Of a DNA stretch of 64,000 nt, positions 3,315 to 28,331 are shown one piece after another. The position numbers and the translations under genes were made by a program. The stretch covers positions 154,620 to 218,619 of the forward strand of contig CAWECG010000001.1 in the NCBI GenBank assembly GCA_963807605.1. The letters are read 5' to 3'. Each line of letters starts with the position of its first letter. Position 1 is the stretch's first letter. Below the pieces are notes generated by a model, which was not told where the DNA came from, searched no databases, and saw nothing but the letters and a program-made list of their open reading frames with translations. The stretch comes from Candidatus Bathyarchaeota archaeon (GTDB taxonomy: Archaea > Thermoproteota > Bathyarchaeia > 40CM-2-53-6 > RBG-13-38-9).

Positions 3315-3315
3315 A

Positions 3316-6001: not shown

Positions 6002-6022
6002 AACAGTAGAGATGATAAAAAT

Positions 6023-8215: not shown

Positions 8216-8228
8216 GGTGATTTAGAGT

Positions 8229-9233: not shown

Positions 9234-9280
9234 CTGTGATCAATGAATTCCATACCTAGCATTCGAAAACCATGCGAAAA

Positions 9281-9296
9281 TCACTCTTTTTTTCCG
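9281..9296 (+). terminator. oligo-T tract (T7) downstream of ilvC, candidate archaeal terminator
   Basis: A CTCTTTTTTTCC tract lies 50 nt after the ilvC stop. Confidence 0.3.
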
Positions 9297-9352
9297 AAAA
9301 CTCTTTATTAGAGTACGATATGATGTTTAGGCAACATGGCAGGCTATGAAAA

Positions 9353-11115: not shown

Positions 11116-11225
11116 GAGAACATAACATCGCACTTATACCTGGCGATGGTATTGGCCCAGAACAGACTGAAGCTGCACTGAAGGTTTTAGAAGCGCGCGC
11201 TAAGAGTATAAGAGAAAAATGCTAA
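11112..11225 (+). pseudogene. leuB: N-terminal remnant (37 codons) of the native 3-isopropylmalate/homoisocitrate dehydrogenase gene
   Basis: ATG overlaps the leuD stop. It encodes MREHNIALIPGDGIGPEQTEAALKVLEARAKSIREKC*, the classic IPMDH/IDH N-terminus, with host-like codon usage. It terminates just after a GCGCGCGC tract (11193-11200). Confidence 0.6.
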
Positions 11226-11241
11226 GGAGAAAAGAAGAACG

Positions 11242-12303: not shown

Positions 12304-12308
12304 GAAAA

Positions 12309-12482
12309 ACACGCGCGCGCTGTGAAAAGGAAGACGACACGAAGTGGACGAATGCAGCTAACGCAATTGAGGAAGCCTTCGTCAACAATCTAGAACAAGG
12401 CGTCTACACACCTGATCTTGGAGGGAAGAGTAGAACAGCGGAAGTTGGAAAAGCAATAGCACAACAAATAATCGAGGGATAA
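12309..12482 (+). pseudogene. leuB: C-terminal remnant of the native leuB-like dehydrogenase
   Basis: It encodes ...TKWTNAANAIEEAFVNNLEQGVYTPDLGGKSRTAEVGKAIAQQIIEG*, an IPMDH/IDH C-terminus, with host-like codon usage. Reading frame 0 matches the N-terminal remnant. The stop lies 2 nt before the leuA ATG. Confidence 0.55.
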
Positions 12483-12484
12483 GA

Positions 12485-14011
12485 ATGCAGCAGGAGAAGG
12501 ATAGAGTCTGGATATTTGATACTACTCTAAGGGACGGCGAACAGACTCCCGGGGTATCCCTCACACCAGAGGAGAAGCTAGAGATAGCTATGAAGCTGGA
12601 CGAGCTTGGCGTCGACACTATAGAGGCGGGTTTCCCAAGAGTATCACGAGGGGAAGTTGAAGCTACTAAGCTCATTTTGAAACAAGGTCTGAAGGCCAAA
12701 GTCTGCGGACTCGCACGGACTGACCAGAAGGACATCGATGCCGCTCTCGAATGTGGAGTCCCCTACATACACGTATTCATAGCAACCTCAGAGATCCACA
12801 TGAAACACAAACTGCAAATGAATAAACAACAGGTTCTAGAGGCTGCAACAAAATGGGTAGGTTACGCGAAGGATCACGGTGTGATTGTAGAATTCTCACC
12901 TGAAGACGCGACTAGAACCGAGCCCGACTTCCTCAAACAGGTCCTTAAGGTCGCTGAAGAGGCTGGAGCCGACATAATAAACGTTCCAGACACCGTCAGC
13001 GCCGCAACACCTGAGAGGATGTTCGAGATCATAAAAGAATGCGTATCCACGGTAGCCATACCGATCAGCGTTCACTGCCACAATGATTTCGGCTTGGCTG
13101 TAGCAAACTCACTCGCCGGAATCAGAGCAGGAGCATCGCAAGCCCATGTAACAATAAATGGGCTGGGCGAAAGAGCAGGTAACGCCTCTCTTGAAGAGTT
13201 TGTAATGTCCCTCCATCTGCTAGAGAATAAGAAGACAAGCATCAACACCAAGCTCATCTACGAGACCTCAAGACTGGTATCCGGGCTTACAGGCGTACTT
13301 ATACAGCCGAACAAGGCTATAGTTGGAGAGAATGCCTTCGGTCATGAATCCGGGATCCATACACATGGAATGCTGAAAAGTCCCTTAACATATGAACCGA
13401 TCACCCCTGAGCTTGTTGGAAGAAAGAGATGGTTCCAAGCCGGAAAACATGCCGGAGGACACGGCCTTGCCGCCAAGCTTGAGGAGGACGGCCTTCATCC
13501 AACTGAAGAACAGATGAAAGAGATAACCCGTCGAGTCAAGGATATCGGCGACAGGGGAAAGATGGTGGCCGATGCAGACCTATTCGCAATCGCCAAAGCA
13601 GTTATCGGCGGAGTTTCGGAAGAGAAGAAGATCGTTGAGTTAGAGAATCTCACAGTTGTAACAGGAACAGGCGTGGTCCCAACATCATCGGTCAAGCTAC
13701 TTATTGACGGAAAAGAGTACATATCCTCGGAGACCGGCGTTGGGCCGGTCGACGCTGCCATCAAGGCTATCCACAAGATAGTTGGTCCGCTGGCGGACGT
13801 GAGATTGAAGGAGTATCGACTGGAAGCCACAACTGGTGGGTCCGACGCTTTAGCCGAAGTCCTCATAAAGATAGAGGATAGCGCAGGCAACATTGTGTCG
13901 GCCAGAGCAGCCAGAACAGATGTGGTGACTGCAAGCGTAGAAGCAGTGATAGAAGGAATCAACAGGACACTAATCAAGAGCCGCATCAAGAGTTCCGAAG
14001 ACCGGCGCTGA
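12485..14011 (+). CDS. leuA: 2-isopropylmalate synthase with C-terminal LeuA-dimer/regulatory domain
   Basis: [15 protein letters not shown] and HCHND motifs with a long C-terminal regulatory domain. 508 aa. Confidence 0.9.
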
Positions 14012-14055
14012 GCACGACACTTCAGAGCTTCCAGAAAGATAGACAGTGACTCATT

Positions 14056-15186
14056 GTGGCCAAGCACAGGATAGCACTTCTTCCGGGCGATGGTATCGGC
14101 AAAGACGTAATCGATGCAGCCAAGATAGTTCTTGACGCGACAAGACTTGACGCCGAGTATTTTCTCGGTGAGATTGGATGGGAATTCTGGAAGAACGAGG
14201 GCGACCCTTTACCCCAGAGAACTCTAAGCCTACTTAGAAGGACCGACGCCTGCTTGATGGGAGCAATAACCTCCAAACCTAAGGATGAAGCTCAACTTGA
14301 GCTAGACCCCAAGCTGAAGAACAAAGCTTACGATTACTACAGCCCAATAGTCAGGCTCCGTCAGGAGTTTAATCTCCACACGAACATAAGACCCTGCAAG
14401 AGCTACAAAGGCAACCCACTCAACTTCAGAGAAGGAATAGACATAGTAGTATTCAGAGAGAATACCGAAGGCCTCTACAGCGGAGTTGAGTTCCACCCCC
14501 TGCCGTTGCCACTGATGCAGTGGCTAATTAAGAATCATCCGAAGATGAAGAGATTCGAATCTACGCCTCTTGATGAGATAGCAATCTCATTGAGGATAAT
14601 GACTAGGAAAGCCTGCGATACGATCCTGACCAGTGCATTCGAGTACGCCAAGAAGAAAGACTACAAGACCGTCACCGTAGTCGAGAAGCCGAACGTACTG
14701 AGAGAGACAGGCGCGCTGATGCTCAGAGAAGCGCGAAGAATTGCCACGAACTACCCTTCAATTCAACTCCTAGAAGGAAATATAGACGCGATCTGTATGT
14801 GGCTGATAAAGAACCCCTTAGACTACTCGATAATTGTGGCTGAGAACCTTTTCGGAGACATCATCTCCGACCTCTGCGCGCAACTTGTGGGAGGCTTAGG
14901 CTTCGCGCCGAGCGCGAACGTCGGTGATAGCTATGCAATCTTTGAACCAACACATGGCTCGGCTCCGAAGTATGCGGGACAGTACAAAGTCAACCCTCTG
15001 GCAACAATCCTCTCTGCAGCTATGATGCTTGAATACCTTAGAGAAAATGCCTTGGCAGCAAGAGTTGAAAACGCAGTCGCAGCTGTCATCGCAGAAGGAA
15101 GAGTAAGAACCTACGATATGGGCGGAAGCAGCACCACCTTGGATATGGCACATGCCATATCTGACAAGCTGAGTTCAAGCTCGTAA
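14056..15186 (+). CDS. isocitrate/3-isopropylmalate/homoisocitrate dehydrogenase family enzyme (may supply LeuB and/or homoisocitrate dehydrogenase activity)
   Basis: GTG start. RIALLPGDGIG N-terminus and NLFGDIISD motif. 376 aa. Confidence 0.85.
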   Translation: MAKHRIALLPGDGIGKDVIDAAKIVLDATRLDAEYFLGEIGWEFWKNEGDPLPQRTLSLLRRTDACLMGAITSKPKDEAQLELDPKLKNKAYDYYSPIVRLRQEFNLHTNIRPCKSYKGNPLNFREGIDIVVFRENTEGLYSGVEFHPLPLPLMQWLIKNHPKMKRFESTPLDEIAISLRIMTRKACDTILTSAFEYAKKKDYKTVTVVEKPNVLRETGALMLREARRIATNYPSIQLLEGNIDAICMWLIKNPLDYSIIVAENLFGDIISDLCAQLVGGLGFAPSANVGDSYAIFEPTHGSAPKYAGQYKVNPLATILSAAMMLEYLRENALAARVENAVAAVIAEGRVRTYDMGGSSTTLDMAHAISDKLSSSS

Positions 15187-15959: not shown

Positions 15960-16289
15960 ATGGATATGTCAGAATTGATGAATCTGCTGCAGGCGACCAT
16001 TGGCTCGGTAGTGATGATTTCAAGCTCAACCTTGTTGTGTCTAGTAATACAAACACGATATGGAAGAGTTGTCGACAAGATTCGACAGCTCATATACGAA
16101 CGACGTCGTCTTCAACAATCAGATAGCCACAAGCAATCGCTTTCAGGCGCGAATAGGGATCTGGCTCAAGAAAGACTCAACAATATTGATACTCAGATAG
16201 GTCTTCTGCTCAATAGAGGTTCCAAACTTAAGCGAGCTCTTTTCTTCACTTTCTCCGCGTCTTCGCCTTCATATTCAGTTCCTTCCTAA
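15960..16289 (+). CDS. hypothetical protein (N-terminal TM, Arg-rich middle). May be one gene with 16304-16489, separated by a frameshift
   Basis: 109 aa ORF followed 15 nt later by a 61 aa TM ORF in another frame. The architecture is vaguely DUF2721-like. Confidence 0.25.
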   Translation: MDMSELMNLLQATIGSVVMISSSTLLCLVIQTRYGRVVDKIRQLIYERRRLQQSDSHKQSLSGANRDLAQERLNNIDTQIGLLLNRGSKLKRALFFTFSASSPSYSVPS

Positions 16290-16303
16290 TATTTGTAGGT
16301 TCA

Positions 16304-16489
16304 ATGCTGGGACCGGCTATGACAATTCCTTTTGTCGCATTGACATTCTTCTTTGGCATGTTATTCCTTCTGCTCGGCGCTGTCACCACCGTTAATGAAA
16401 TCGCAAACTCCTACGATGTTGTCACCAAAGAAGTGAAGTTTGCAAAGTTCGAGGCATTGAGAATTTCTAATCAGACATCAGAACCATGA
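16304..16489 (+). CDS. hypothetical small membrane protein (possible continuation of 15960-16289)
   Basis: 61 aa with one hydrophobic helix. Confidence 0.2.
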   Translation: MLGPAMTIPFVALTFFFGMLFLLLGAVTTVNEIANSYDVVTKEVKFAKFEALRISNQTSEP

Positions 16490-16633: not shown

Positions 16634-17302
16634 CTATTTCGTTGCTGTCTTCTCTTTGTGTCTCCTTTCAAGTTCCTTGAATATTTCGCCTAGTGCTACT
16701 TTTCTTGATGCAAGAAGAATCATCAGGTGAAAGATCAAGTCCGTTACTTCCGATACAAGTGCATTCGGCTTGTCTTTCGGCGCTAGAATGACCTCTGTGG
16801 ACTCTTCGCTGATCTTCCTCAGGATCGCGCTTTCACCCTCATCCACCAAGCTCTTGACATAAGATCTCTCGTCGCCGCTCCTTATCCGTTCACCTACTAT
16901 CTCATATATTCTGTTCAATGTTGATGCGTTCGGACGAGGCTCCTCCTCTTTGATGACTGGCTTGTGAAAGCAGCTTTCCATGTTTGTGTGACAACATGGA
17001 CCTACCTGTTGAACTTTGAACAAGACGGCATCGTTGTCGCAGTCCAGACTAAGATTCTGCACTATAGAAAAGTGTCCGGACTCTTCGCCTTTCATCCAAA
17101 GCCTCTTTCTAGTGCGGCTCCAGAAGTGGGTCTTCCCTGAGACCAGGGTAAGTATGAAGGCCTCCCTATTCATATATGCCTGCATGAGAACCCTATTGTT
17201 AGAGGCGTCCTGGACTATCGCCGGGATCAGTCCATTACCTTTTTCAAAGTCAATCCTCTGAGCCATCTCCTCCGCCTCTTTTCTGCTCATCTGCAGAACC
17301 AT
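16634..17302 (-). CDS. hisI: bifunctional phosphoribosyl-AMP cyclohydrolase / phosphoribosyl-ATP pyrophosphatase
   Basis: HisI cyclohydrolase N-domain (C...CH Zn site) and HisE-type C-terminal NTP-pyrophosphatase domain. 222 aa. Confidence 0.9.
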   Translation of the reverse strand: MVLQMSRKEAEEMAQRIDFEKGNGLIPAIVQDASNNRVLMQAYMNREAFILTLVSGKTHFWSRTRKRLWMKGEESGHFSIVQNLSLDCDNDAVLFKVQQVGPCCHTNMESCFHKPVIKEEEPRPNASTLNRIYEIVGERIRSGDERSYVKSLVDEGESAILRKISEESTEVILAPKDKPNALVSEVTDLIFHLMILLASRKVALGEIFKELERRHKEKTATK

Positions 17303-17317
17303 TCGCCCCAGATCCTC

Positions 17318-18124
17318 CTATGATGTCGGTCTGACAGGAACTCCGTGACTCGAAAGGTACTCTTTGACCTTCATAACAGGATAAGTGGCTCGGTGGAATA
17401 TTGATGCGGCCAGCGCAGCATCGGCTGCCCCTTCGACCAACGCCTCTCGAATATGCTCGGGATCACCAGCCCCTCCGCTAGCGATAATCGGTATGTGCGT
17501 ACTCTCGGAGATGGTTCTTGTAAGAGGTATGTCATAGCCTCGCTGTGTCCCATCGCAGTCCATACTTGTAAGGAGGATTTCACCAGCACCCAACTCCTCG
17601 ACACGGGTTGCCCATTCCACTGCGTCGATCCCGGTTGGTATCCTTCCACCTTCAACATGGACTTGCCACCAACACGCTCCCTGTGGTGTATCCACGACCA
17701 TCTTGTTGTCACGTTTCTCGTAGGACCTCTTTGCGTCAATGGCAACTACGATGCATTGAGTGCCGAAAGCCTCAGCTGCTCTCTTGACAAGGGTCGGGTC
17801 CTTCACAGCACCTGTATTTATTGAGATCTTATCTGCACCTGAACCTAGTATCTCGCGGATGCCTTCTATCGACAGTATTCCGCCACCGACAGTAAACGGT
17901 ATGAAGAGAGTCTCAGCGGTTCTCTTGACGACATCGAGGAAAATCTTTCTTCTCTCAAAAGATGCTGTGATGTCGAGGAAGACTACTTCGTCAGCACCTT
18001 CCGCGCCGTAGGCTTCAGCGAGCTTAGCGGGATCGCCTTCCTCCTTTATATTAACAAACTTGACCCCTTTGACTACCTTTCCATCTTTGACATCGAGGCA
18101 TGGGATTATTCTCTTAACCAGCAT
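17318..18124 (-). CDS. hisF: imidazole glycerol phosphate synthase cyclase subunit
   Basis: [16 protein letters not shown] start. (beta/alpha)8 HisF. 268 aa. Confidence 0.95.
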
Positions 18125-18836
18125 TCATTGCAGCCTCCAGGGCCTCTTTCAAAGTGAACTTGTTCTCGTATAGTGCCGTACCCAAGATTACGCCTTGAAC
18201 ACCTATCTTTGCTAGAGCGCGTATATCCTCCGGGCTACTTATTCCTCCTGAGGCTATCACAGGAATCTTCAGTTGGCGGACAAGCCTCTTTGTGTCGTTG
18301 AGCGCCGGGCCGCCTAATGTCCCATCCGCATTGACTGAGGTGAAGATTACGGATCCGACACCTATCGCTTCCAGTTTCTGTGCGACTTCAATATACTCAA
18401 GAGAAGTCTTGCTCCTCCATCCCTCTATTGCTGGGCTGCCATTCTTGACATCTATGGCTGCGGCAACTCTGTCCTTGCCGAAGATGGAGGCGGCTTCTGA
18501 AACAAGTTCAGGCTTTCTGATGGATGCCGTTCCAAATATGATTCTTGTAACGCCGAGGTCTAGGACCTGCCTTGCCTTCTCAATCGTTCTTATTCCGCCT
18601 CCAACCTCGGTCTTGATCTGTACCGACTTCACGATTCTGCTTATGGTCTTGGTGTTCTCTCCGAGACCTAAGGCAGCGTCTAAGTCAACTATGTGAAGCA
18701 TCTCAGCACCCTGTGCTTGAAAGAATCTGGAAGCCTCTGATGGATCCTCATAGTATTGTTTGGTTCTCGAAGGATCTCCCTGGAAAAGTCGGACGCATCT
18801 TCCGCGCATAAGATCGATAGCTGGAATTACTATCAC
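18114..18836 (-). CDS. hisA: ProFAR isomerase
   Basis: VIPAIDL...GG HisA signature. 240 aa. Confidence 0.9.
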
Positions 18837-18844
18837 AGGTTATA

Positions 18845-19453
18845 CTACTTCCTTATCACCCCGACGAAGTTTCTAAGTACTGTCAAACCAGCCTGTGAGC
18901 TCTTCTCGGGGTGAAATTGGGTGGCAAACACGTTTCCCCTCTCAAGAATTGAAGGAAACTCCGTTCCGTATTCTGTCTTTGCAACTACGTCGCCCTCATC
19001 CTCCGGCTTCGCAACGTAGGAGTGAACAAAATAAGCATATGAGTTATCTGGAACTCCCTCAAGAATCGGGCTTTTTCTAATTATCTCGATATTATTCCAT
19101 CCAATTTGGGGAAGCTTAACGTTCGTCGGCAGCTTGACTACCTCTCCTTTTAGAAGATTTAGGCCAGGAGTTACTCTGCCCTCATAGCTCTTTGTGAACA
19201 AGAGCTGGAGACCGAGGCATATCCCCAACAGTGGCTTTCCATTCTTGACTTCCTGAATCAATACGTCTTCAAGTTTTGAGAGGTTCTTCTTTGCTTCTGC
19301 GAAAGCGCCGACTCCAGGCAGAACTATGGCATCAGCACTTCTTACCTTTGCAGGATCGCTTAGGATCTCAACCTCAGCTCCCGCTTTCTCGAGGCCTTTC
19401 TTGACGCTATACAGATTTCCAACGCCGTAGTTGACGATGATTACTAAAGTCAC
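18845..19453 (-). CDS. hisH: imidazole glycerol phosphate synthase glutaminase subunit
   Basis: Class I glutamine amidotransferase with catalytic Cys in GICLGLQ. 202 aa. Confidence 0.9.
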   Translation of the reverse strand: MTLVIIVNYGVGNLYSVKKGLEKAGAEVEILSDPAKVRSADAIVLPGVGAFAEAKKNLSKLEDVLIQEVKNGKPLLGICLGLQLLFTKSYEGRVTPGLNLLKGEVVKLPTNVKLPQIGWNNIEIIRKSPILEGVPDNSYAYFVHSYVAKPEDEGDVVAKTEYGTEFPSILERGNVFATQFHPEKSSQAGLTVLRNFVGVIRK

Positions 19454-19454
19454 T

Positions 19455-20033
19455 CTATAGTTCGCCTTTCGTGCTAGGAATAGTCTTGCGGGCTCTTAGT
19501 TCTAATGAGCATGCTTCCCTTAGCGCTAAAGCTAGAGCCTTTGTTGAAGCTTCTACCTTGTGATGATCGTTGGTTCCGTATAAAGCTGTCACATGGATGT
19601 TCGACTTAGATGATTGTGCCAGAGAAACGAAGAAATGATCTATGTCCTCAGTCTTCAAGTCCTCAATTTCATTCGACTGAATTTTCAGATCGATACTTGG
19701 ATAGGCTCTTCCTCCGAGATCGATCACTGCTCTAGCCAGCGAATCGTCCATTGGTACATGTGCTGAACCGAATCTTCTTATGCCCCTCTTGTCTCCTAGA
19801 GCTTTGTTTACGGCTTCTCCGAGTGCAAGTCCAATATCTTCTGACAGGTGGTGTTTGAGGTCTCCGGAGGCCTTTACCTCCAAGTCTATGAGCGAGTGTC
19901 TGCCGAGAGTAGTCAGTAGATGATTAAGGAATCTGTTTCCCGTCTCCACCTTGACGTTTCCTTTACCGTCCAGGTTAAGTCTCACTGAGATCTTAACCTC
20001 GGCTGTCTCTCTCTTGACTGCTACTTTTCTCAA
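19455..20033 (-). CDS. hisB: imidazoleglycerol-phosphate dehydratase
   Basis: IGPD His-rich Mn motifs. 192 aa. Monofunctional, with no HAD phosphatase domain. Confidence 0.9.
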   Translation of the reverse strand: MRKVAVKRETAEVKISVRLNLDGKGNVKVETGNRFLNHLLTTLGRHSLIDLEVKASGDLKHHLSEDIGLALGEAVNKALGDKRGIRRFGSAHVPMDDSLARAVIDLGGRAYPSIDLKIQSNEIEDLKTEDIDHFFVSLAQSSKSNIHVTALYGTNDHHKVEASTKALALALREACSLELRARKTIPSTKGEL

Positions 20034-20054
20034 TTTCCATGCCTTCCCATTCTG

Positions 20055-21242
20055 TCAAAGACTGCTGGTATCGAGTTCGCATCTCTTATTATTACTTCGA
20101 CCCCAAGTTCCTTGAACCTGTTTTGCAGAGTATTCATAGTTGGTGAAGAAGATAGCGTGCCTATGAAGAGTATATTCTTTGCCTCGAATCTCCTGAGCAT
20201 TTCTGGTCATCAAGGCATCTGCGAACGTATCTCCCACGTAAGCTACAGTCCGACAATCCTTGCAGAATCCTTCTAGAAGAGCTACGAAGGCTCTTGCGTC
20301 TGGCTTCCCGAGAATTGAATTGGATTCCAAGTTTCTCGATGCTCTCATGATGTCCTCGTTGAAGAAAATAGCTCTCTCGTCGAAATAGCCAAGAAGGTTG
20401 TGTTTCTGCAGGATATAGATGCCTTCATTCCTGGGTCTTTCTGAGTACAGCGCCATAAGGCCAAATCTCGACCTCACCTTCTCCAATGTCTCAAAGGAGG
20501 GTATTCTCGTTTCGTTGTCTATCAGACCCTCACCGAAGTCAAAGAAAGGCTTCTTGCCAGAGAATTTTTGGTATAATGTCCGCCCCAAATATGTCTCATC
20601 GAACAACCTCCTGAGCAAATCCTCTCCATCGACACTGAATGGACAGAGGCTCTTCACATTCTCAAGCATGGGCTCACTCAAGGCCAAGTTTTGGCTGATC
20701 CCTTTCAAAATTGGGAGGGACATCTTCTCACTGAATGTCTCCGATAGACTGTTGAGGCCTAGTAGTGAATCGGACTTCATCCTCTCTAGGTATGGGATAT
20801 CTATCCCCATTTGTCCTGATTTCCCTCCTAAATCCCTCAGTCTGCTCACAATATTTCTTAGGTCTGAAGGAGAACGCACTTGATCCTCGTCAGCAGATGC
20901 AGGCTTAACCCAACCTTCGAGCAGGCGTACTATCAATCCCAAATAGTAAGTGATCAGCGCGTAAGTTAGATTCCAATCGTTATTGAAGGCACCAGTATTC
21001 TTCATCTTCTGAATGTCCTCTTGTGTTGCCAAGCGACCTTCTTGTCCCTTAAGTCCGACGAGTTCAAGAAAGAAGTAATCGACTGAACGGGCTATCGCTT
21101 GCCTGTATGAGTCTCTGTCTGAAACTATTACTCCGTCACAGTCAAAGATCAGCTTCTCAACTTCTAGGAGTAACGGGATTGCGTCGTCCCTGCATAGAGT
21201 CAGCTCATCACCGAGAGTATGGTATGACTGTCGGAGCTTCAA
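20055..21242 (-). CDS. HAD-superfamily hydrolase with large cap domain, embedded in the his operon. Candidate histidinol-phosphate phosphatase
   Basis: HAD motif I FDCDGVIV, motif III GKPDARAF and motif IV YVGDTFAD. 395 aa. It sits between hisB and hisC and overlaps the hisC stop, so it is translationally coupled. Confidence 0.65.
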   Translation of the reverse strand: MKLRQSYHTLGDELTLCRDDAIPLLLEVEKLIFDCDGVIVSDRDSYRQAIARSVDYFFLELVGLKGQEGRLATQEDIQKMKNTGAFNNDWNLTYALITYYLGLIVRLLEGWVKPASADEDQVRSPSDLRNIVSRLRDLGGKSGQMGIDIPYLERMKSDSLLGLNSLSETFSEKMSLPILKGISQNLALSEPMLENVKSLCPFSVDGEDLLRRLFDETYLGRTLYQKFSGKKPFFDFGEGLIDNETRIPSFETLEKVRSRFGLMALYSERPRNEGIYILQKHNLLGYFDERAIFFNEDIMRASRNLESNSILGKPDARAFVALLEGFCKDCRTVAYVGDTFADALMTRNAQEIRGKEYTLHRHAIFFTNYEYSAKQVQGTWGRSNNKRCELDTSSL

Positions 21243-22321
21243 ATTAGGATGCGCCTTAATTCCCGCAGGAACCTCTCATTCAGAGGCCGCGTCCCAACGG
21301 TAACCCTCAGACAGTTGCGAAGCAGAGGGATGCTCCCTCTGTCTTTTATCAGGACTCCTTTCTGCCTTAACTCAGACTGGATCTGTGATGACGTTTTTGC
21401 GCCCTCGACTCGAAATAGGATGAAGTTTGCGTCTGATGGGAATGGGGTTACCCCTCTAAGCTGTTGAAGTTGATCTCTCAGCCACTCTCTTTCTTTCTTG
21501 ACAGCCTCCCAACTTTTCTTGAAGTAATCGCATCTTCGAAGTGCTTCCACTGCTAATTGCTGTGCTACAGCGCTTACGTTGAACGGGTGGACGGTCTTCT
21601 TGATTCCGTCCACTAATTCCTGATCGGTTATGAGGTATCCGATCCTTACTCCAGCTAAACCATAGGCCTTAGAGAAGGTTCTGAGAACAACAAGGTTGTC
21701 ATATTGATCTGCCCACTTTAGAACAGAGTATCCTGAAAACTCTGCATAAGTCTCATCGATGACTATAGTTGTCTGGCATTTGCTAAGCAGTTCTTCTAAA
21801 TCTCTCTCCTCAAACTGGTTTCCCGTCGGGCTGTTAGGAGAACAGATGAAAAGAAGTCTAGCCTCACTAGAGGCTTTTATCAACGCATCCATGTCTAGGC
21901 TGAAATCTGGTTTGAGCCTGACCTCGACTTTCTGACCTCGACATAGCTGTGTATAATACGTGTACATGAAGAATGTCGGCTCAGCTACAACAACCACCGA
22001 TCCATTGTCTATTATAGTCCTAGTTAACCTGTCGAGAACATCATCTAGACCGTTCCCTACAAAGATACGTGATGCCTCTATATTGTAAAATTTCCCAATA
22101 GCCTCGACTGCAAGCCTCGCATGAGGCTCGGGATATTCTCTCGGGTCTATTCTCCTGAGTGCTGCACCGAACATCTTCGTCAATACTCCCTTCTCAATCA
22201 ATGGGTTCTCGTTTAGGCTCATTCTGACAAGGTCCGGAAGGGCTTCAGTTGGGAAGTCCTCATCAAGTCTGTAAGGAGATATCTCCAAGAGGTCCTCTCG
22301 GATTACTTCTCTGAATCGCAT
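21239..22321 (-). CDS. hisC: histidinol-phosphate aminotransferase
   Basis: Class II aminotransferase with PLP lysine in SKAYGLAG. 360 aa. Confidence 0.9.
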   Translation of the reverse strand: MRFREVIREDLLEISPYRLDEDFPTEALPDLVRMSLNENPLIEKGVLTKMFGAALRRIDPREYPEPHARLAVEAIGKFYNIEASRIFVGNGLDDVLDRLTRTIIDNGSVVVVAEPTFFMYTYYTQLCRGQKVEVRLKPDFSLDMDALIKASSEARLLFICSPNSPTGNQFEERDLEELLSKCQTTIVIDETYAEFSGYSVLKWADQYDNLVVLRTFSKAYGLAGVRIGYLITDQELVDGIKKTVHPFNVSAVAQQLAVEALRRCDYFKKSWEAVKKEREWLRDQLQQLRGVTPFPSDANFILFRVEGAKTSSQIQSELRQKGVLIKDRGSIPLLRNCLRVTVGTRPLNERFLRELRRILI

Positions 22322-22323
22322 TT

Positions 22324-23631
22324 TCAGACACCTCTAGCCTTTATAGATTCGGAGTGGGCCCGCAGGTTCTCGATCTCGGCCAGCGTCACTGTAGTCTTAG
22401 CTAGTCTCTTCAATCCCTCTTTCGAGCAACGAACATAGCTAATAGTCTTGACAAAATCTTTGACTGAAAGCCCGGAGTAGTTCTTGGCGGATCCGCCTGT
22501 TGGCAGGACGTGGTTTGTTCCTGCAGAGTAGTCGCCAACAGCGACTGGTGAGTATTGCCCCAAGAATATGAGGCCTGCATTTCTTATTTGTGGAAATAGT
22601 CTGGATGCATCTCGAGTCATGATGACTACATGTTCAGGTGCGATCAGATTTGTGAGTGTTGTGGCCTCTTCGAGATCGTCAACAATTATTATGATCCCCT
22701 TTTTGTCCAATGCGATTCTCGCGGTTTCGGATCCGAGGCCAATCTTAAGATTCTCACCTACTCTTTCTCTAACTTCGTTTGCGATTCTTTCGGAGCTGGT
22801 TAGCAGGATGCAAGTCGCGTTTTCATCGTGTTCGGCCTGCGCCAACAGGTCTGATGTAATGAATCGTGTGTTTGCGCTATCGTCTGCTATGATTAGTATC
22901 TCGCTTGGACCAGCGGGGAGATCCACCGAGACGCGTTCGCTCAAGAGTTGCTTGGCGGCTGTCACGTAAATGTTTCCTGGGCCGACTATTTTTTCTACTG
23001 GACTTATCGTCTTGGTGCCGTAGGCCATCGCTGCAATAGCTTGTGCTCCACCGACGCAGAATATTTCGTCTACCCCTGCGATATCTGATGCCACAAGGAT
23101 ATACGGGTTAAACTTTCTTTTCGGGGATGGTGGGCTACACACAACAATCCTTTCAACTCCAGCTATCTTGGCAGGAATAGCACACATCAAGACTGACGAG
23201 GGATAGGAGGTCTTTCCCCCTGGGGCATAGATGCCAACTGATGATACTGGTCTTGTAGAAACCCCGAGTGTGACGCCTCCGCTAGACTGTTCAAATGCTA
23301 TGCGGCTGAACTGCATTTTGTGAAATCGCTTAATGTTAGAAGCCGCCTTTCTCAGTGCTCTGACTTCGACTTCTCGAGTTAGACTGTATGCTGCATCGAC
23401 GTCTTCTCGTGTAGCTCTTATCGTGCAAGAATCTAACCTTACCCCATCGAACTTTTGAGTGAACTCAAATAGAGCCTCATCACCGCGTGTTGATATCGAT
23501 TCGATTATGCCTTTGACATCTTCAGCCACACTTTCGAGTTCCAGTCGGCCTCTGTTGAGAATCTCATCGAGCAACTGGCCTTTCAATTCCCTAGATCTTA
23601 TTAAACGCATAATAATGAGCCTTCTAACCAA
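22324..23631 (-). CDS. hisD: histidinol dehydrogenase
   Basis: HisD Zn/NAD motifs. 435 aa, though the start may be an internal Met. Confidence 0.9.
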   Translation of the reverse strand: MVRRLIIMRLIRSRELKGQLLDEILNRGRLELESVAEDVKGIIESISTRGDEALFEFTQKFDGVRLDSCTIRATREDVDAAYSLTREVEVRALRKAASNIKRFHKMQFSRIAFEQSSGGVTLGVSTRPVSSVGIYAPGGKTSYPSSVLMCAIPAKIAGVERIVVCSPPSPKRKFNPYILVASDIAGVDEIFCVGGAQAIAAMAYGTKTISPVEKIVGPGNIYVTAAKQLLSERVSVDLPAGPSEILIIADDSANTRFITSDLLAQAEHDENATCILLTSSERIANEVRERVGENLKIGLGSETARIALDKKGIIIIVDDLEEATTLTNLIAPEHVVIMTRDASRLFPQIRNAGLIFLGQYSPVAVGDYSAGTNHVLPTGGSAKNYSGLSVKDFVKTISYVRCSKEGLKRLAKTTVTLAEIENLRAHSESIKARGV

Positions 23632-23765
23632 CGAAGGGAAGTTCCAAGGTTGACCTAATAAGCTGGTTTTTGAGACTTAAAGTTCATTGGGAGCATCTAT
23701 GTCGGTCGAACTTCACGACTTCGTAGTCGCCCCGAATACAAATCTGGCACACGGGTCGGTTGAGA

Positions 23766-24614
23766 ATGGCTGGTAAGATCACGATAGCATATCTGGGCCC
23801 TAAAGGGACCTTTACTGAACAAGCTGCAAGAACATTCTTTCCAGGTCCTCATGAGTTCATGGATTGCAGAGATATTCCGGAGATCTTCAGTGCGGTGACA
23901 TCTAACGTCGCCGAATATGGAGTTGCGCCTGTTGAGAACTCTATCGAAGGTTCTGTCAGGATAGCTTTAGACCTCCTCCTAGAATCTGACATCAAAGTCA
24001 CTGGTGAAATTGAGCAACGGATAGTCCACCATCTTATAGCTGATGAAAGTGTTGAGATCTCAACAATACGGGCAGTGGTCTCACATCCGCAGGTATTCCC
24101 CCAATGTAGGAACTTCTTGAGGGAAAGACTCCCAAAAGCCGAGTTAGTAGAAGTCGGGAGTACAGCAGCAGCGGTCAAGTCGGTTAGAGGAACCAAAGAC
24201 GTGGCCGCTATTGGCAGTGAACTGGCTGCCAAGATATATGGCATGAAGATACTCGTGAGAGGCATAGAAGATAATCCTAACAACTCCACCAGGTTTTTTG
24301 TTCTCGGATATAGAGTGGCGAATAGAACTGGAAACGATAAGACTTCGATAATCTTCTCGACAAAGCATGCTCCAGGAGCGCTCTATGAAGCCCTTGGGGT
24401 CTTTGCCAAGAGAAAAATCAACCTTACGAAGATCGAGTCTAGGCCAACACGGAAAACGCCTTGGGAATATGTGTTCTACTGCGATTTTGAAGGACACCAG
24501 GAGGAGAGACTAATCCAAGATACTCTAAACGAACTCAAAGACAAGACGATTCTCCTTAAGATCTTCAGGATCATACCCCAAAGCGAGGAATTAGCTCAGT
24601 ATTTTTTTCACTGA
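23766..24614 (+). CDS. pheA: prephenate dehydratase with C-terminal ACT domain
   Basis: IAYLGPKGTFTEQA...ESRP PDT motifs and a C-terminal ACT domain. ATG at 23766 is in frame with the track ORF. Confidence 0.85.
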   Translation: MAGKITIAYLGPKGTFTEQAARTFFPGPHEFMDCRDIPEIFSAVTSNVAEYGVAPVENSIEGSVRIALDLLLESDIKVTGEIEQRIVHHLIADESVEISTIRAVVSHPQVFPQCRNFLRERLPKAELVEVGSTAAAVKSVRGTKDVAAIGSELAAKIYGMKILVRGIEDNPNNSTRFFVLGYRVANRTGNDKTSIIFSTKHAPGALYEALGVFAKRKINLTKIESRPTRKTPWEYVFYCDFEGHQEERLIQDTLNELKDKTILLKIFRIIPQSEELAQYFFH

Positions 24615-24647
24615 GTAAACTCCAAATGATCTACAAGTCTTTGCGGC

Positions 24648-25088
24648 TTATCCTTTTTTTCTATGAGTGACTTTTTCGATTGCGTTTTGCAGTTTTCGCG
24701 GCTCGGCAGAATACAGTCTTATGAACTCGCCTCTTCTTGGACGGAAGACCGAGACATAACCTCGTTTCTCGTTTACTTTAGCAAGGTAGTTGGACTTCAA
24801 GGGAATGAGCCTTTTCCCTTCTGAGTCAATTCCTGTTGACAGGACTCTGTAACGACTGGGTATTATCAAGATGGGAGAAGGGAGAAGTAGGACGGAGAGG
24901 ATCAGAAATACGATCATTGATATCAGAAGGTTCCCGACATGGAAGACTACTACTTGAACAAAGACGACCACATAAAGAGTCAAGATATCCAGCAGGAAAA
25001 TGAGGATTGCCCTTAGGATTCTTCTATTACGGTCGGCTAATTTTAGGTCCGTTGAATCAGTCTGGTACAGGACATCCTTATCCGTCAT
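24648..25088 (-). CDS. hypothetical membrane protein (2 TM plus a PH-like C-terminal domain)
   Basis: 146 aa, with hydrophobic helices followed by a soluble domain. No catalytic motif. Confidence 0.35.
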   Translation of the reverse strand: MTDKDVLYQTDSTDLKLADRNRRILRAILIFLLDILTLYVVVFVQVVVFHVGNLLISMIVFLILSVLLLPSPILIIPSRYRVLSTGIDSEGKRLIPLKSNYLAKVNEKRGYVSVFRPRRGEFIRLYSAEPRKLQNAIEKVTHRKKG

Positions 25089-25379
25089 TAGGTTAACCTG
25101 CTATTGAATGGTTCATAGCTGTGTCTTTTGCGGACAGAAAAACTTTCTTGACAATCACTCCTATCGCAATCCAAGACCTGTAGTAATAGGAAACGATTTG
25201 ATTTAATAGTCGAAACATGATGGCTTATTCGTCTACTCTAAATGAACATGGGAACCTAATATCGGAACTTTGAGAGTCATCTGCTATTTGTTTTCATTGT
25301 CCCCCCGAGGCAAGCTTAAATAGAGTGGTAGATTCTAAAAGCAAGAAATCTGCAACATTTCTTGGATTGGGTGCTAGGT

Positions 25380-25829
25380 TTGGCCAGAATGTACACAAGC
25401 AAGCGAGGAAGATCCAGCTCCACTAGACCAATCAGCAAGAAACCTCCAAGTTGGTGCAAATACCGGGAAGAAGAGGTAGAAGCGATAATAATGAAACTTT
25501 CAAAGCAGGGAAACAATCCAAGTACAATAGGCACTATTCTCAGAGATACCTACGGCATACCGCTTGCTAGATCGATAACCGGAAGGAAGATGGGACTGAT
25601 TCTGTCACAGTCACAACTTTCTTCCACCATTCCTGAAGACCTTCAGATCCTTCTCGAGAAGGCTAAGGCGCTCGCCAAGCATCTTGAAAGGAATAGGCAG
25701 GACTCCGTCAACAAGCACGGCCTCACCCATGTTGAATCAAAAATACATAGACTCGTAAAATTCTACAAGTCTGAGGGAATCTTGCCAAAAGACTGGAAAT
25801 ACACCCACGTCGCAGCATCCGTCGAATAG
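25380..25829 (+). CDS. rps15: 30S ribosomal protein S15 (uS15, eukaryotic S13 family)
   Basis: N-terminus MARMYTSKRGRSSS...W matches archaeal S15P. TTG 25380 is in frame with the track ORF. About 150 aa. Confidence 0.85.
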   Translation: MARMYTSKRGRSSSTRPISKKPPSWCKYREEEVEAIIMKLSKQGNNPSTIGTILRDTYGIPLARSITGRKMGLILSQSQLSSTIPEDLQILLEKAKALAKHLERNRQDSVNKHGLTHVESKIHRLVKFYKSEGILPKDWKYTHVAASVE

Positions 25830-26098
25830 AAGGTCTTCTTAACGCATGCTCTCCAGAGCCTACTATAGGTAGCAATTTTAACCTCGCCACTGTAGCCGTA
25901 TTCATGGTTATTCTTTCTAAAACAGCATGTACTAGCTGCCGTTATGAGGATGCCTTATGTTCTGCTCGCAAACGGAACTATACGGATGGTCATTGTTTCC
26001 ATCGTGAAAAGATGGAAGATCAGGCAAATGCCTGGCTTTCGGGGACTAGTGAGGCTAAGACATGGGGAAAGGTGAAGGAGAGCGTACGTTTATGATCA

Positions 26099-26599
26099 TT
26101 ACTTCCCCGTTTGACTTATTCCCAGTTTCTTAGCTAATTCAGCAGTTTCGTCGTCGCTCATCCAGAACACCTTGAGGTAGTTGTAGATCTCCAAGTCACT
26201 CATCCCGATTTGTCTGGCCTCTTGAACCGTGCACTTGTAAGCCTCGATCTCCGTGGGTCTGTCCACATATTCGAAGCTGTCGTTGAAAAGCTCATTACCC
26301 TTCAAAAACTGCTTCACGTGGACCAACTCATGAATCAAATCCAAGTAGATCTCCTCTACATTACCATGCTTCAGGTAGTACGTACTGACGATCAAGTGAC
26401 CGTCCTCATCGCTTACCCCCATATACCCGTATCTTGACGAAAAGAACTCGACCTTCAGGTTGCGAAGCACCTCTTCAGTCTTATCGCCGAAAATGCGTCT
26501 AACCGCCTCAGCCTTCTCAAAGCCCTTAAAGTGATCAGAGAATCTGTACAGCGCCACCTTGACAGTTCGAGGAATCTCGACATCAGGCATATTCTTCAT
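26099..26599 (-). CDS. hypothetical protein with HExxH (HELVH) zinc-metallopeptidase-like motif
   Basis: 166 aa with HELVHVKQ...E motifs. No TM segment. Family not recognised. Confidence 0.4.
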   Translation of the reverse strand: MKNMPDVEIPRTVKVALYRFSDHFKGFEKAEAVRRIFGDKTEEVLRNLKVEFFSSRYGYMGVSDEDGHLIVSTYYLKHGNVEEIYLDLIHELVHVKQFLKGNELFNDSFEYVDRPTEIEAYKCTVQEARQIGMSDLEIYNYLKVFWMSDDETAELAKKLGISQTGK

Positions 26600-26900
26600 G
26601 AATTGTCTTCCTCAACCTTGATGAACACAAATCTCAGGTTCTGTAGGTTCCTTCTTCAGAAGAAACTAATGAGACTATGGATTGCTCCATGAGGTTCCTT
26701 CCCCAGCTTGGAAGGGGATCCTGCGCTGTGGATCTCTGGAGTCTTAAACACACAAGTTACAATACATATCTTTTAAAATGGGTCGACTGATAGTTCGCCA
26801 GCCACTTTACAACAGCCAGATCGCCAAACATGTGACGTTTGACCGACCAGGATCCCGCAAAATACAGATATAGCGTAGATGAGGAGTTCGTTGAACAGGA

Positions 26901-28331
26901 ATGCTTGATTCTCATAAGAAGCTCATAGACGAAGCTGAACGAGCTGCCGAGAAGATCAAAGATAACATATCTGAAGGATCTCGTATTGCGGTCGGTTGTC
27001 ACTTCGATGCTGACGGACTGGCTGCCGCCGGAATATTGGTGAAAGCGCTTTACAGAGCAGGTGCATCGTTTCATTTGAGGGTCTTGAAGCAGCTTGACCC
27101 GCAGGACATCGAGTTCTTTTCCAAATCCGCCTCTGATGCAGTGATCCTTGCGGACATCGGAAGTGGCTATCTTGATCTTCTGAAGGATCTAGCGAACTCA
27201 AAGGACGTCTTTGTCTTAGACCATCACCAAATCAATGGCGAGAACTTTGGGAGGCTCATACACGTCAACCCGCATCTATCAAACCTCGATGGAGGAAAAG
27301 AAGTGAGCGGCGCCGGAGTCTCCTACACAGTGGTAAAAGCGTTGGACCAGCAAAACATCGACCTGTCTCCCTTGGCGGTTGTAGGAGCTGTAGGAGATAT
27401 GCAGGATAAAAATGAAGGGAGAACACTTCGTGGATTCAATTCGCTTATAGTGGAAGATGCCGTCAAGTCAGGTCTTCTCAAAGTTGAGACGGACTTGATA
27501 ATCTACGGAAGAGAGACGAGGCCAGTCCACAAGGCTCTATCACATACAGTGAATCCATTTCTTCCCGGGCTGAGTGGACAGGAAGACAACTGTTTCGCAT
27601 TACTATCTTCATTGTCGATACCAATTAAGGTCGGCGACAGATGGAGAACTGTGGTTGAACTCTCTAGTGATGAAAAGAAGAAGATACTATCGGCTATAGT
27701 TGAAAAGATCACCTCTGGCGGTCTTTCAGGAGCCGTTGTCATGAACTTGATCGGAAGCGTCTATACGCTTCTTGGAGAAGAAAATTGGACTCCTACACGT
27801 GACGCGAGAGAATATGCCACATTGCTAAACTCCTGTGGAAGAATGGGCCATCCGTCGATTGCGATAGCTGTATGCATGGGAGAGCGAGGCCCTACAATCG
27901 CTGAAGCCAACAAGATCCTTTCAGAACATCGAAAAGCTCTGGCGACGTATATGACTTTGATAACAGAGAAGCCGTCTTCCGTAGAGAGTCTCGGGAGACT
28001 TTCTGTAATTCATGGTGAGGAGTATTTAAACGAGAATATGACTGGAGCTGTATCCTCCTTGCTGTCGTCATCTGAGACATTTGCTCCAGGCAAAGTGATC
28101 ATTGTTTGCGCCAAGACGAGAAATGGCGAGATAAAGATCTCAGCTAGAGCCACCGCGAAGATGGTTGAAAAAGGGGTAAACCTGGGTCACTCCCTCCAAC
28201 ATATCGCCGAGAAATACGGAGGAATTGGTGGCGGCCACAAAATTGCAGCCGGTGCCCAGATTCCTCAGCAGAGATTGAAGGAATTCCTCAAAGAACTCAG
28301 CGATGAGCTATCAAGGTTGCTTCAAGAGTGA
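26901..28331 (+). CDS. RecJ-like DHH/DHHA1 phosphoesterase (archaeal GAN/Cdc45-like nuclease)
   Basis: DHH motifs (HFDADG, DHH) and a C-terminal DHHA1 motif GGGHKIAAGA. 476 aa, a size typical of archaeal GAN. Confidence 0.75.
   Translation: MLDSHKKLIDEAERAAEKIKDNISEGSRIAVGCHFDADGLAAAGILVKALYRAGASFHLRVLKQLDPQDIEFFSKSASDAVILADIGSGYLDLLKDLANSKDVFVLDHHQINGENFGRLIHVNPHLSNLDGGKEVSGAGVSYTVVKALDQQNIDLSPLAVVGAVGDMQDKNEGRTLRGFNSLIVEDAVKSGLLKVETDLIIYGRETRPVHKALSHTVNPFLPGLSGQEDNCFALLSSLSIPIKVGDRWRTVVELSSDEKKKILSAIVEKITSGGLSGAVVMNLIGSVYTLLGEENWTPTRDAREYATLLNSCGRMGHPSIAIAVCMGERGPTIAEANKILSEHRKALATYMTLITEKPSSVESLGRLSVIHGEEYLNENMTGAVSSLLSSSETFAPGKVIIVCAKTRNGEIKISARATAKMVEKGVNLGHSLQHIAEKYGGIGGGHKIAAGAQIPQQRLKEFLKELSDELSRLLQE

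What the first reader, a model, noticed from the sequence alone, without database searches (positions are those of the whole stretch)
20055..21242. 395-aa HAD hydrolase embedded in the his operon: candidate for the missing archaeal histidinol-phosphate phosphatase
The operon hisD-hisC-[HAD]-hisB-hisH-hisA-hisF-hisIE is otherwise complete. hisB is monofunctional (dehydratase only), and no PHP-type or IMPase-type HolPase is visible. The inserted gene has HAD motifs I (FDCDGVIV), III (GKPDARAF) and IV (YVGDTFAD), with an unusually large ~250 aa cap insertion. It overlaps hisC, indicating co-translation. The HolPase step is the least conserved step of the pathway and is unassigned in many archaea.
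Basis: inference. Interest (0 to 1): 0.6.

Follow-up and report, generated by a model that had tools for sequence, protein, structure and literature searches.

The report
Archaeal HisN-type histidinol-phosphate phosphatase gene
The HAD-family gene between hisC and hisB is very probably the histidinol-phosphate phosphatase of this Bathyarchaeon, but that enzyme family was already identified and tested in 2024, and the odd 395-aa gene end is a one-base assembly error.

Summary
The ORF exists, with HAD motifs and a hisC overlap as described. Its 3' end is an artefact. One extra base at window 20186/20187 shifts the frame. An independent assembly, 99.95% identical over 7.9 kb, lacks that base and encodes an intact 403-aa protein whose stop overlaps the hisB start. 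The window has at least three other frameshifted genes (ilvN, DUF2721, pheA end), so this is assembly error, not biology.

The protein is a full-length homologue (hhalign probability 100%, E 2e-44) of the Nitrosopumilales nmHisN group. nmHisN (Nmar_1556) was shown in vitro to be a specific histidinol-phosphate phosphatase (Kinateder et al. 2024), and the hisC/hisB hydrolase gene was noted in 2009. The second-best structural match is Tt82 from Thermococcus, which carries the toHisN fingerprint.

The hisC-HAD-hisB position recurs in Bathyarchaeia, Thaumarchaeota, Odinarchaeia, Atribacterota and Acidobacteriota, and Gastranaerophilales have a hisC-HAD fusion.

Two differences remain. The helical cap is about 75-90 residues larger and resembles S. 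aureus ZR25 (1qyi). Fingerprint residue Asp25 is Arg here (Y-R-K-D).

This is a divergent, untested member of a known family.

The parts
20030..21242 (-). True hisN-like HAD phosphatase CDS (403 aa once the spurious base at 20186/20187 is removed)
   Evidence: The repaired translation is identical to P0085 from an independent assembly. Family members are 390-405 aa. The AF2 model has pLDDT 88.9 and pTM 0.84.
20055..21242 (-). Residues 1-352 are genuine and residues 353-395 are out-of-frame junk.
20186..20187 (-). Single-base insertion that causes the frameshift (window GAGATTCGAGG; L091 lacks the C; L001 reads GAGA-TCGAGG)
   Evidence: The window carries three further indel-type frameshifts.
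20030..20185 (-). Genuine C-terminal segment in the other frame (EAKNILFIGTLSSSPTMNTLQNRFKELGVEVIIRDANSIPAVFDRMGRHGN*). It forms the last two beta-strands and helices of the Rossmann core and includes invariant G361.
21129..21146 (-). HAD motif I, FDCDGV (nucleophile D34, general acid/base D36)
   Evidence: Invariant columns in A1/A3
20508..21122 (-). Single large all-helical C1 cap (residues ~41-245, about ten helices). It is ~75-90 residues longer than in Nitrosopumilales nmHisN-type proteins.
21102..21107 (-). Y46-R47, equivalent to nmHisN fingerprint residues Y24-D25 (Asp replaced by Arg)
   Evidence: Alignment to Nitrosopumilales orthologues; fingerprint from PMC10804674
20976..21002 (-). 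K81...D89 in KNTGAFNND, equivalent to nmHisN K56 and E64. Both are invariant in the family.
20217..20306 (-). HAD motif III (K313 in GKPD) and motif IV (D338, D342 in YVGDTFAD)
21239..21242 (-). TTGA overlap of the hisC stop and the HAD start (translational coupling)
20030..20033 (-). TTGA overlap of the repaired HAD stop and the hisB TTG start
21239..22321 (-). hisC, histidinol-phosphate aminotransferase (makes the proposed substrate)
   Evidence: TIGR01141 318.6 bits, above cut-off
19455..20033 (-). hisB, monofunctional imidazoleglycerol-phosphate dehydratase (192 aa, no phosphatase domain)
   Evidence: Pfam IGPD only; NCBIfam
22324..23631 (-). hisD, histidinol dehydrogenase (consumes the proposed product)
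16634..19453 (-). hisH, hisA, hisF and hisIE, the remainder of the operon

Best explanation
The gene encodes an intact 403-aa Mg2+-dependent HAD-superfamily phosphatase of the archaeal HisN family (nmHisN/toHisN type, TIGR01548-like). It catalyses step 8 of histidine biosynthesis, L-histidinol phosphate -> L-histidinol + Pi.

Inferred mechanism, from HAD chemistry and the nmHisN mutagenesis: Asp34 attacks the phosphate and forms an aspartyl-phosphate intermediate. Asp36 acts as general acid/base. Ser267 (the motif II position), Lys313 and Asp338/Asp342 bind phosphate and Mg2+. The large helical cap closes over the site, and Tyr46, Lys81 and Asp89 (with Ile50 and Ile77) position the imidazole/amino-alcohol part of the substrate.

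The gene is co-transcribed and translationally coupled on both sides. hisC lies upstream and makes the substrate, and hisB lies downstream. The apparent 395-aa truncated product is an assembly artefact caused by a one-base insertion.
For: Shown here:
- HAD core motifs are invariant.
- Full-length profile-profile homology to eight Nitrosopumilales nmHisN-type proteins: probability 100%, E 2e-44, 322 columns.
- Five of the six published specificity/accessory positions are conserved: Y46, I50, I77, K81 and D89 (D for E, as in toHisN).
- The gene sits between hisC (or hisD) and hisB in relatives down to 25% identity: Bathyarchaeia, Nitrosopumilales, Nitrososphaerales, Odinarchaeia, Atribacterota, Acidobacteriota, Verrucomicrobia.
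- Rosetta-stone hisC-HAD fusions occur in three Gastranaerophilales-like genomes.
- hisB is dehydratase-only, and the window has no PHP or IMPase gene.
- Frameshift is an artefact. L091 is 99.949% identical over 7,857 aligned positions and lacks the extra base. P0085 equals the repaired protein. All five other full-length members of the 90% cluster are 403 aa. The window has at least 3 further frameshifts.

From the literature: Nmar_1556 has kcat 0.79 s-1 and KM 73 uM for HolP and was inactive on nine other phosphoesters (PMC10804674).
Against: - No activity has been measured for this subfamily.
- Fingerprint residue Asp25 is Arg47 here, a charge reversal. The D25A mutant of nmHisN lowers kcat/KM about 220-fold, and the authors say Arg at this position 'puts the HolPase function into question' for Euryarchaeota.
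- Identity to the characterised enzymes is only ~23-28%.
- The cap is much larger and resembles S. aureus ZR25 (1qyi), whose function is unknown.
- About half of the Y-R-K-D members found (haloarchaea, delta-proteobacteria) are not in his clusters.
- Only 64 kb of the genome was seen, so another HolPase elsewhere cannot be excluded.
Confidence: 0.85

Rival explanations
1. The frameshift is real. In this organism the gene is a recently inactivated pseudogene or makes a C-terminally scrambled, probably inactive 395-aa protein, and the HolPase step is done by another enzyme or histidine is scavenged.
For: The frameshifted product is what the deposited 599-kb contig encodes. The insertion is not in a long homopolymer.
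Against: An independent assembly of essentially the same strain (99.949% identity) has the intact gene. At least three other conserved genes within the window (ilvN, DUF2721, pheA 3' end) carry the same kind of one-base frameshift, which points to assembly error. The out-of-frame C-terminal coding sequence is fully preserved. The rest of the operon is intact.
Confidence: 0.05
2. The protein is a HAD phosphatase with a different or broader physiological substrate, for example a sugar phosphate, phosphoglycolate or another housekeeping phosphoester. It is carried in the his operon for historical or regulatory reasons, and the Arg47 substitution and enlarged ZR25-like cap reflect a changed specificity.
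For: - Public annotations call relatives 'phosphoglycolate phosphatase-like'.
- Asp25 -> Arg departs from the experimentally defined fingerprint.
- The best structural match is ZR25, of unknown function.
- Many Y-R-K-D members lie outside his clusters.
- HAD phosphatases are often promiscuous (general knowledge).
Against: - The position between the substrate-producing hisC and hisB is conserved across at least 7 phyla, including 28 Y-R-K-D loci.
- hisC-HAD fusions exist.
- Position 25 varies (D, R, E, G, L, N, Y) among his-embedded members, while Y24, K/R56 and D/E64 stay fixed.
- No other HolPase candidate accompanies a dehydratase-only hisB.
- The 'phosphoglycolate phosphatase-like' labels are generic automated names.
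Confidence: 0.08
3. The extra base is genuine and is bypassed by programmed +1 ribosomal frameshifting to regulate HolPase levels.
For: Only that a full-length product would require a +1 shift at ...GAG AUU C GAG...
Against: Every relative examined, including a 99.95%-identical one, is in frame. There is no recognisable slippery or stimulatory element. Similar indels disrupt unrelated genes in the window.
Confidence: 0.01

Closest known systems
nmHisN (Nmar_1556), HAD-type histidinol-phosphate phosphatase of Nitrosopumilus maritimus (Kinateder et al. 2024, Protein Sci 33:e4899)
   Same: Full-length homology to the Nitrosopumilales orthologue group (hhalign 100%, E 2e-44). Same gene position between hisC and hisB. 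Same architecture, a HAD Rossmann core plus one large all-helical cap after motif I. Y24, I28, I52, K56 and the acidic residue at 64 are conserved.
   Different: Only ~23-28% identity. About 403 aa against ~310 aa, with roughly 75-90 extra cap residues. Asp25 is Arg47. Glu64 is Asp89. No activity data exist for this subfamily.
toHisN (TON_0887, Thermococcus onnurineus; Lee et al. 2008) and its solved relative Tt82 (PDB 6iah, T. thioreducens)
   Different: Tt82/toHisN is ~240 aa with a much smaller cap (seven helices according to PMC10804674) and has the fingerprint Y-D-R-D, against Y-R-K-D here. That Tt82 is the toHisN orthologue is my inference from its fingerprint and taxon and was not shown here.
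TIGR01548 'HAD-SF-IA-hyp1' family (NCBIfam hypothetical equivalog)
   Same: Best NCBIfam model for the window protein and for every subfamily tested, including nmHisN-type proteins. JGI names some cluster mates 'TIGR01548 family'.
   Different: The window protein scores 79.5 bits against a cut-off of 140.2. Among those tested only the haloarchaeal type passes (223.6 bits). The model carries no functional name.
ZR25 / Q8NW41 of Staphylococcus aureus (PDB 1qyi), structural-genomics HAD protein of unknown function
   Different: 21% identity. Phe replaces the fingerprint Tyr and there is an insertion before the NNDW-like motif. Function and genomic context are unknown to me.
Other HolPase types: E. 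coli HisB-N (HAD-IIIA, fused to IGPD), paHisN (PSP-like HAD), PHP-type HisJ/HisK, IMPase-type HisN
   Same: Same reaction. HisB-N and paHisN share the HAD core chemistry.
   Different: No fusion to IGPD, no zinc-loop or HAD-IIIA signature above threshold, a different cap, and no PHP or IMPase fold.

Membership tests
Archaeal HisN family (nmHisN/toHisN-type HAD HolPases) | HAD catalytic motifs I-IV (DxD, S/T, K, DxxxD) | tested here: met
   D34/D36, K313 and D338/D342 are invariant in the family. S267 lies in the conserved YSERPR stretch. Pfam Hydrolase E 3e-8.
Archaeal HisN family (nmHisN/toHisN-type HAD HolPases) | Significant full-length sequence homology to nmHisN-type proteins | tested here: met
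   hhalign of A3 against eight Nitrosopumilales orthologues: probability 100%, E 2e-44, columns 9-402 against 8-331. N. maritimus Nmar_1556 itself was not available; same-genus and same-family orthologues were used.
Archaeal HisN family (nmHisN/toHisN-type HAD HolPases) | One large all-helical cap inserted after motif I | tested here: met
   The AF2 model (pLDDT 88.9) has about ten helices between residues 43 and 243 and no second insertion. The cap is larger than the nine helices described for nmHisN.
Archaeal HisN family (nmHisN/toHisN-type HAD HolPases) | Fingerprint Tyr24 | tested here: met
   Y46
Archaeal HisN family (nmHisN/toHisN-type HAD HolPases) | Fingerprint Asp25 | tested here: not met
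   R47, at least 90% conserved in this subfamily. This is the same exchange the paper reports for Euryarchaeota and delta-proteobacteria.
Archaeal HisN family (nmHisN/toHisN-type HAD HolPases) | Fingerprint Lys/Arg56 and Asp/Glu64; accessory Ile28 and Ile52 | tested here: met
   K81 and D89 are invariant; I50 and I77 are present
Archaeal HisN family (nmHisN/toHisN-type HAD HolPases) | Gene located in the his cluster between hisC and hisB | tested here: met
   Window and relatives
Archaeal HisN family (nmHisN/toHisN-type HAD HolPases) | Specific Mg2+-dependent hydrolysis of L-histidinol phosphate | not testable with these tools
   Requires an enzyme assay or complementation.
TIGR01548 (NCBIfam HAD-SF-IA-hyp1) | Score at or above the curated cut-off of 140.2 bits | tested here: not met
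   79.5 bits (frameshifted ORF) and 79.4 bits (intact P0085). It is the best-scoring model all the same.
HisB-N type HolPase (E. coli; HAD-IIIA, TIGR01656/TIGR01662) | HAD-IIIA/Histidinol-ppas domain above threshold, usually fused to IGPD | tested here: not met
   TIGR01662 E 0.03, 14.4 bits (cut-off 44.6). TIGR01656 not reported. hisB is a separate 192-aa IGPD.
PHP-type (HisJ/HisK) and IMPase-type (HisN of Actinobacteria/plants) HolPases | PHP or inositol-monophosphatase domain | tested here: not met
   No such Pfam domain in this protein or in any ORF of at least 70 aa in the window.
paHisN-type (PSP-like HAD HolPase of Pseudomonas) | Fingerprint D16-D18-Y47 and a four-helix PSP-like cap | not tested
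   No paHisN sequence or structure was compared directly. The cap architecture described in PMC10804674 differs from the model here.

The most novel reading that the evidence does not exclude
The Arg-25 ('Y-R-K-D') branch of the HisN/TIGR01548 superfamily consists of genuine histidinol-phosphate phosphatases that recognise the substrate without the Asp25 judged critical in nmHisN. This branch includes the large-cap Bathyarchaeial form, a ~225-aa small-cap form embedded in Acidobacteriota his operons, Atribacterota members, the hisC-fused Gastranaerophilales form, and by extension the haloarchaeal and delta-proteobacterial TIGR01548 proteins. If so, one family would close a sizeable share of the remaining hisN gaps. 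GapMind 2026 still reports hisN missing in 20% of prototrophs. The published four-residue fingerprint would also need relaxing at position 25.
Probability: 0.6. Interest if true: 0.4.

Novelty: new member of a known kind. Interest (0 to 1): 0.22.

Why it matters
For this genome, the result fills the one apparent hole in histidine biosynthesis and shows that the deposited gene model is corrupted by an indel. The same contig has several such errors, which matters to anyone inferring auxotrophy or pseudogenes from it.

More generally, the comparative data gathered here give independent genomic support that members with Arg at fingerprint position 25 are HolPases. That data comprises 28 his-embedded Y-R-K-D loci in several phyla plus hisC-HAD fusions. 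The 2024 paper left this point open, and annotation resources (the NCBIfam TIGR01548 name, GapMind hisN gaps) have not absorbed it. The advance is incremental. The enzyme family, its operon position and its presence in Bathyarchaeota are already published.

Tried and rejected
- The supplement of PMC10804674, which would hold the nmHisN sequence and logos, is not held. Numbering was anchored on Nitrosopumilales orthologues from the genome scan.
- Model coordinates are not exposed to scripts, so distances from R47, Y46, K81 and D89 to the catalytic Asp could not be measured.
- A real pseudogene and programmed frameshifting were both considered and rejected, because an independent 99.95%-identical assembly is in frame and other genes in the window carry similar indels.
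- The tRNA scan of the window found nothing.
- A literature search for TIGR01548 found nothing relevant. Searches for follow-up work on nmHisN or on a haloarchaeal HolPase found none.
- One 'FS?' flag from the frameshift scan (L003 antisense ORF at window ~14050-14160) is a gene-junction artefact, not a frameshift.

Full report
OBSERVATION.
The ORF exists at 20055..21242 on the minus strand. It is 395 aa with a TTG start, and that start overlaps the hisC stop in a TTGA junction. Pfam and NCBIfam confirm the minus-strand gene order:
- hisD 22324-23631
- hisC 21239-22321
- HAD 20055-21242
- hisB 19455-20033
- hisH 18845-19453
- hisA 18114-18836
- hisF 17318-18124
- hisIE 16634-17302
hisB is a 192-aa dehydratase-only protein. 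The HAD ORF matches Pfam Hydrolase (E 3e-8). Its best NCBIfam model is TIGR01548 'HAD-SF-IA-hyp1', at 79.5 bits against a cut-off of 140.2.

THE GENE MODEL IS FRAMESHIFTED.
Homologues are 390-405 aa, yet even a 95%-identical one (P0001, 403 aa) covered only 90% of the query. The alignment shows the window protein diverging after '...NAQEI'. The conserved C-terminus 'EAKNILFIGTLSSS...VFDRMGRHGN*' lies in another frame. DNA alignment shows one extra base in the window: GAGATTCGAGG against GAGA-TCGAGG. Removing it gives a 403-aa protein whose TGA stop overlaps the hisB TTG start (ATTGA), the same coupling junction as at hisC/HAD.

The exact 395-aa product exists in one public record on a 599,409-bp contig. 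The five other full-length members of its 90% cluster are all 403 aa. Its 7,855-bp contig (L091, Logan ERR10755942) is 99.949% identical to window 19723-27579. It differs by two substitutions and two one-base insertions in the window, one at 20186 (HAD) and one at 24566 (3' end of pheA).

The window also has a frameshifted ilvN at ~8000-8010, where the ALS_ss_C domain continues in frame +1. A DUF2721 gene is frameshifted at ~16241-16253. Both indels lie beside 4-nt homopolymers. Four indel frameshifts in conserved genes, together with an intact gene in an independent assembly of the same population, make assembly error by far the best explanation. In the AF2 model the lost segment forms the last two beta-strands and helices of the Rossmann core and includes invariant G361. 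A real truncation would therefore probably be inactivating.

WHAT IT IS.
The family is conserved in Bathyarchaeia at 35-95% identity. In relatives' contigs the gene keeps its place:
- hisD-hisC-HAD-hisB-hisH-hisA-hisF-hisIE in L002, L004, L005 and L007.
- hisD-HAD-hisB in L003 and L006.
- hisG-hisD-hisC-HAD-hisB in L008, a contig that looks bacterial from its gene content.

A scan of species-representative genomes returned 80 loci. Labelling their ORFs with the window's His proteins shows the HAD gene embedded in his clusters in Bathyarchaeota, Nitrosopumilales, Nitrososphaerales, Odinarchaeia, Woesearchaeota, Atribacterota, Verrucomicrobia and about 25 Acidobacteriota (Bryobacterales, a short ~225-aa form). 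In three Gastranaerophilales-like genomes it is fused to the C-terminus of HisC, giving 581-586-aa ORFs. In L064, hisC TIGR01141 covers residues 10-350 and TIGR01548 covers 355-533. Haloarchaeal, delta-proteobacterial, spirochaete and Bacillota members lie outside his clusters. The neighbouring hisB is the short dehydratase-only form wherever gene calls exist.

THE LITERATURE ALREADY EXPLAINS IT.
Kinateder et al. 2024 (PMC10804674) started from a remark by Fondi et al. 2009 about an uncharacterised hydrolase gene between hisC and hisB in Thaumarchaeota. They purified Nmar_1556 (nmHisN) and showed it is a monomeric HAD enzyme with one large nine-helix cap. Its kcat is 0.79 s-1 and its KM is 73 uM for histidinol phosphate with Mg2+, and it was inactive on nine other phosphoesters. 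Alanine scanning defined the fingerprint Y24-D25-K56-E64 plus I28 and I52. Their similarity network placed nmHisN in a cluster of Thaumarchaeota and Bathyarchaeota sequences. Euryarchaeal and delta-proteobacterial clusters carried Arg at position 25, which they considered 'likely' but less certain HolPases. toHisN of Thermococcus onnurineus (Lee et al. 2008) is a distant member with Y-D-R-D.

MEMBERSHIP TESTED HERE.
Nitrosopumilales orthologues from the genome scan reproduce the published numbering: FDCDGVL(V/I)DIT(Q/K)SYD..TI ... IIDGFK..GGFNDE. A profile of the Bathyarchaeial family aligns with a profile of eight such proteins over their full lengths, with probability 100% and E 2e-44. The mapping is:
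- Y24 = Y46
- D25 = R47
- I28 = I50
- I52 = I77
- K56 = K81
- E64 = D89
. Five of six positions are therefore kept, with D for E as in toHisN, and Asp25 is Arg.

Tt82 shows the toHisN fingerprint SYD...LRRKGSFGDD. The roughly 75-90 residues that the window protein has beyond nmHisN-type proteins lie in the middle of the cap and are shared structurally with ZR25.

WHAT THE COMPARISON ADDS.
Among 78 scanned loci with a readable fingerprint, Y-R-K-D occurs in 28 his-embedded loci and 23 others. Y-D-K-E is confined to Nitrosopumilales and other Thaumarchaeota. Y-D-R-D occurs in Nitrososphaerales, Odinarchaeia and Caldarchaeum. Position 25 is D, R, E, G, L, N or Y among his-embedded genes, while Tyr24, Lys/Arg56 and Asp/Glu64 are essentially fixed. 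This argues that Asp25 is not required for the his-linked role, and it supports the HolPase assignment of Arg-25 members, which the paper left open. The evidence is contextual, not enzymatic, and the pattern-based scan biases which loci were recovered.

OTHER HOLPASE TYPES.
A Pfam scan of all ORFs of at least 70 aa in the window found no PHP, IMPase or further HAD phosphatase, and no HisG. The window is only 64 kb, so this says little about the whole genome.

MECHANISM.
Shown: the motifs, the fold, the homology and the context.
Inferred from HAD chemistry and the nmHisN mutagenesis:
- Asp34 is the nucleophile and Asp36 the acid/base.
- Lys313, Asp338 and Asp342 bind Mg2+/phosphate.
- Cap residues Tyr46, Lys81 and Asp89 hold the histidinol moiety.
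The role of Arg47 and of the extra cap helices is unknown.

VERDICT.
The 395-aa form is an assembly artefact. The gene is a divergent, uncharacterised subfamily member with a larger ZR25-like cap and Arg at position 25, so I classify it as a new member of a known kind. Interest is low to moderate.

Noticed in passing
window ~7990-8230 (+): ilvN (AHAS small subunit) is frameshifted. The ORF 7699-8040 ends '...SAVDQKNPLGHLPLRRGI*', while the ALS_ss_C-like continuation 'KRIRSDIFHYVEVFRGRIVDVS...ARTGETALIRG' lies in frame +1. The indel is next to CCAAAAGAA.
   Followed up: partly
window 15960-16483 (+), shift at ~16241-16253: A DUF2721 membrane-protein gene is frameshifted relative to its orthologues in L002 and L011, next to CTCTTTTCTTC.
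   Followed up: partly
window 24566 (pheA, 23760-24614 +): There is one extra G relative to the 99.95%-identical contig L091. It alters the last residues of prephenate dehydratase (284 aa here against 275 aa called in L091). Together with the other indels this suggests an error-prone, probably long-read, assembly of the 599-kb source contig.
   Followed up: partly
window 23631-23760 and the whole window: No hisG (ATP phosphoribosyltransferase) or hisZ is present in the window. A divergently transcribed pheA lies upstream of hisD. In other Bathyarchaeia (L004, L006) a HisS-like gene (putative hisZ) and hisG sit directly upstream of hisD.
   Followed up: no
L064:3939-5681, L067:4041-5786, L071:3966-5723: Natural hisC-HAD gene fusions (581-586 aa) occur in Gastranaerophilales/Melainabacteria-like genomes and are directly followed by hisB. 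L064 has hisC at residues 10-350 and TIGR01548 at 355-533. I found no mention of this fusion in the papers read.
   Followed up: partly
L045, L048, L051-L056, L058, L062-L063, L065, L068-L070, L072-L076, L078-L079, L083-L087 (and others): About 25 Acidobacteriota (Bryobacterales/Solibacteraceae) loci carry a short ~220-235-aa, small-cap Y-R-K-D version of the same HAD family between hisC and hisB, in the order hisIE..hisD-hisC-HAD-hisB-hisH-hisF-hisA. L045 scores 121 bits on TIGR01548, just under the cut-off.
   Followed up: partly
L015:6480-7601: One Bathyarchaeia contig has a second HAD paralogue (92 bits to the window protein) immediately after hisIE, in addition to the copy between hisC and hisB.
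   Followed up: no
L003, L006, L022, L024: In several lineages hisC is missing from the cluster, and the HAD gene directly follows hisD (hisD-HAD-hisB).
   Followed up: no
window 1-15183 (+): A long run of amino-acid biosynthesis genes lies upstream: a RimK-like/ArgC/ArgB/class-III aminotransferase/M20 set (LysW/ArgX-type arginine-lysine cluster), a homocitrate/isopropylmalate synthase-like gene fused to an AsnC ligand-binding domain (4274-5797), then ilvB, ilvN, ilvC, leuC, leuD, leuB, leuA and a second Iso_dh.
   Followed up: no
window 59133-61866 (-): A sulfur-relay-like cluster: DsrE/DsrE2, TusA, a nitrate-reductase-gamma-like membrane protein and a CCG/Fer4 (HdrD-like) protein, next to an ArsR regulator and a CLC channel with a CBS domain.
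   Followed up: no
window 43409-43963, 47450-47989, 55482-56084: These are unusually long stretches (540-600 nt) without an ORF of at least 70 aa. No tRNA is predicted anywhere in the window. Given the indel errors seen elsewhere, they may hide further broken genes or non-coding RNAs.
   Followed up: no
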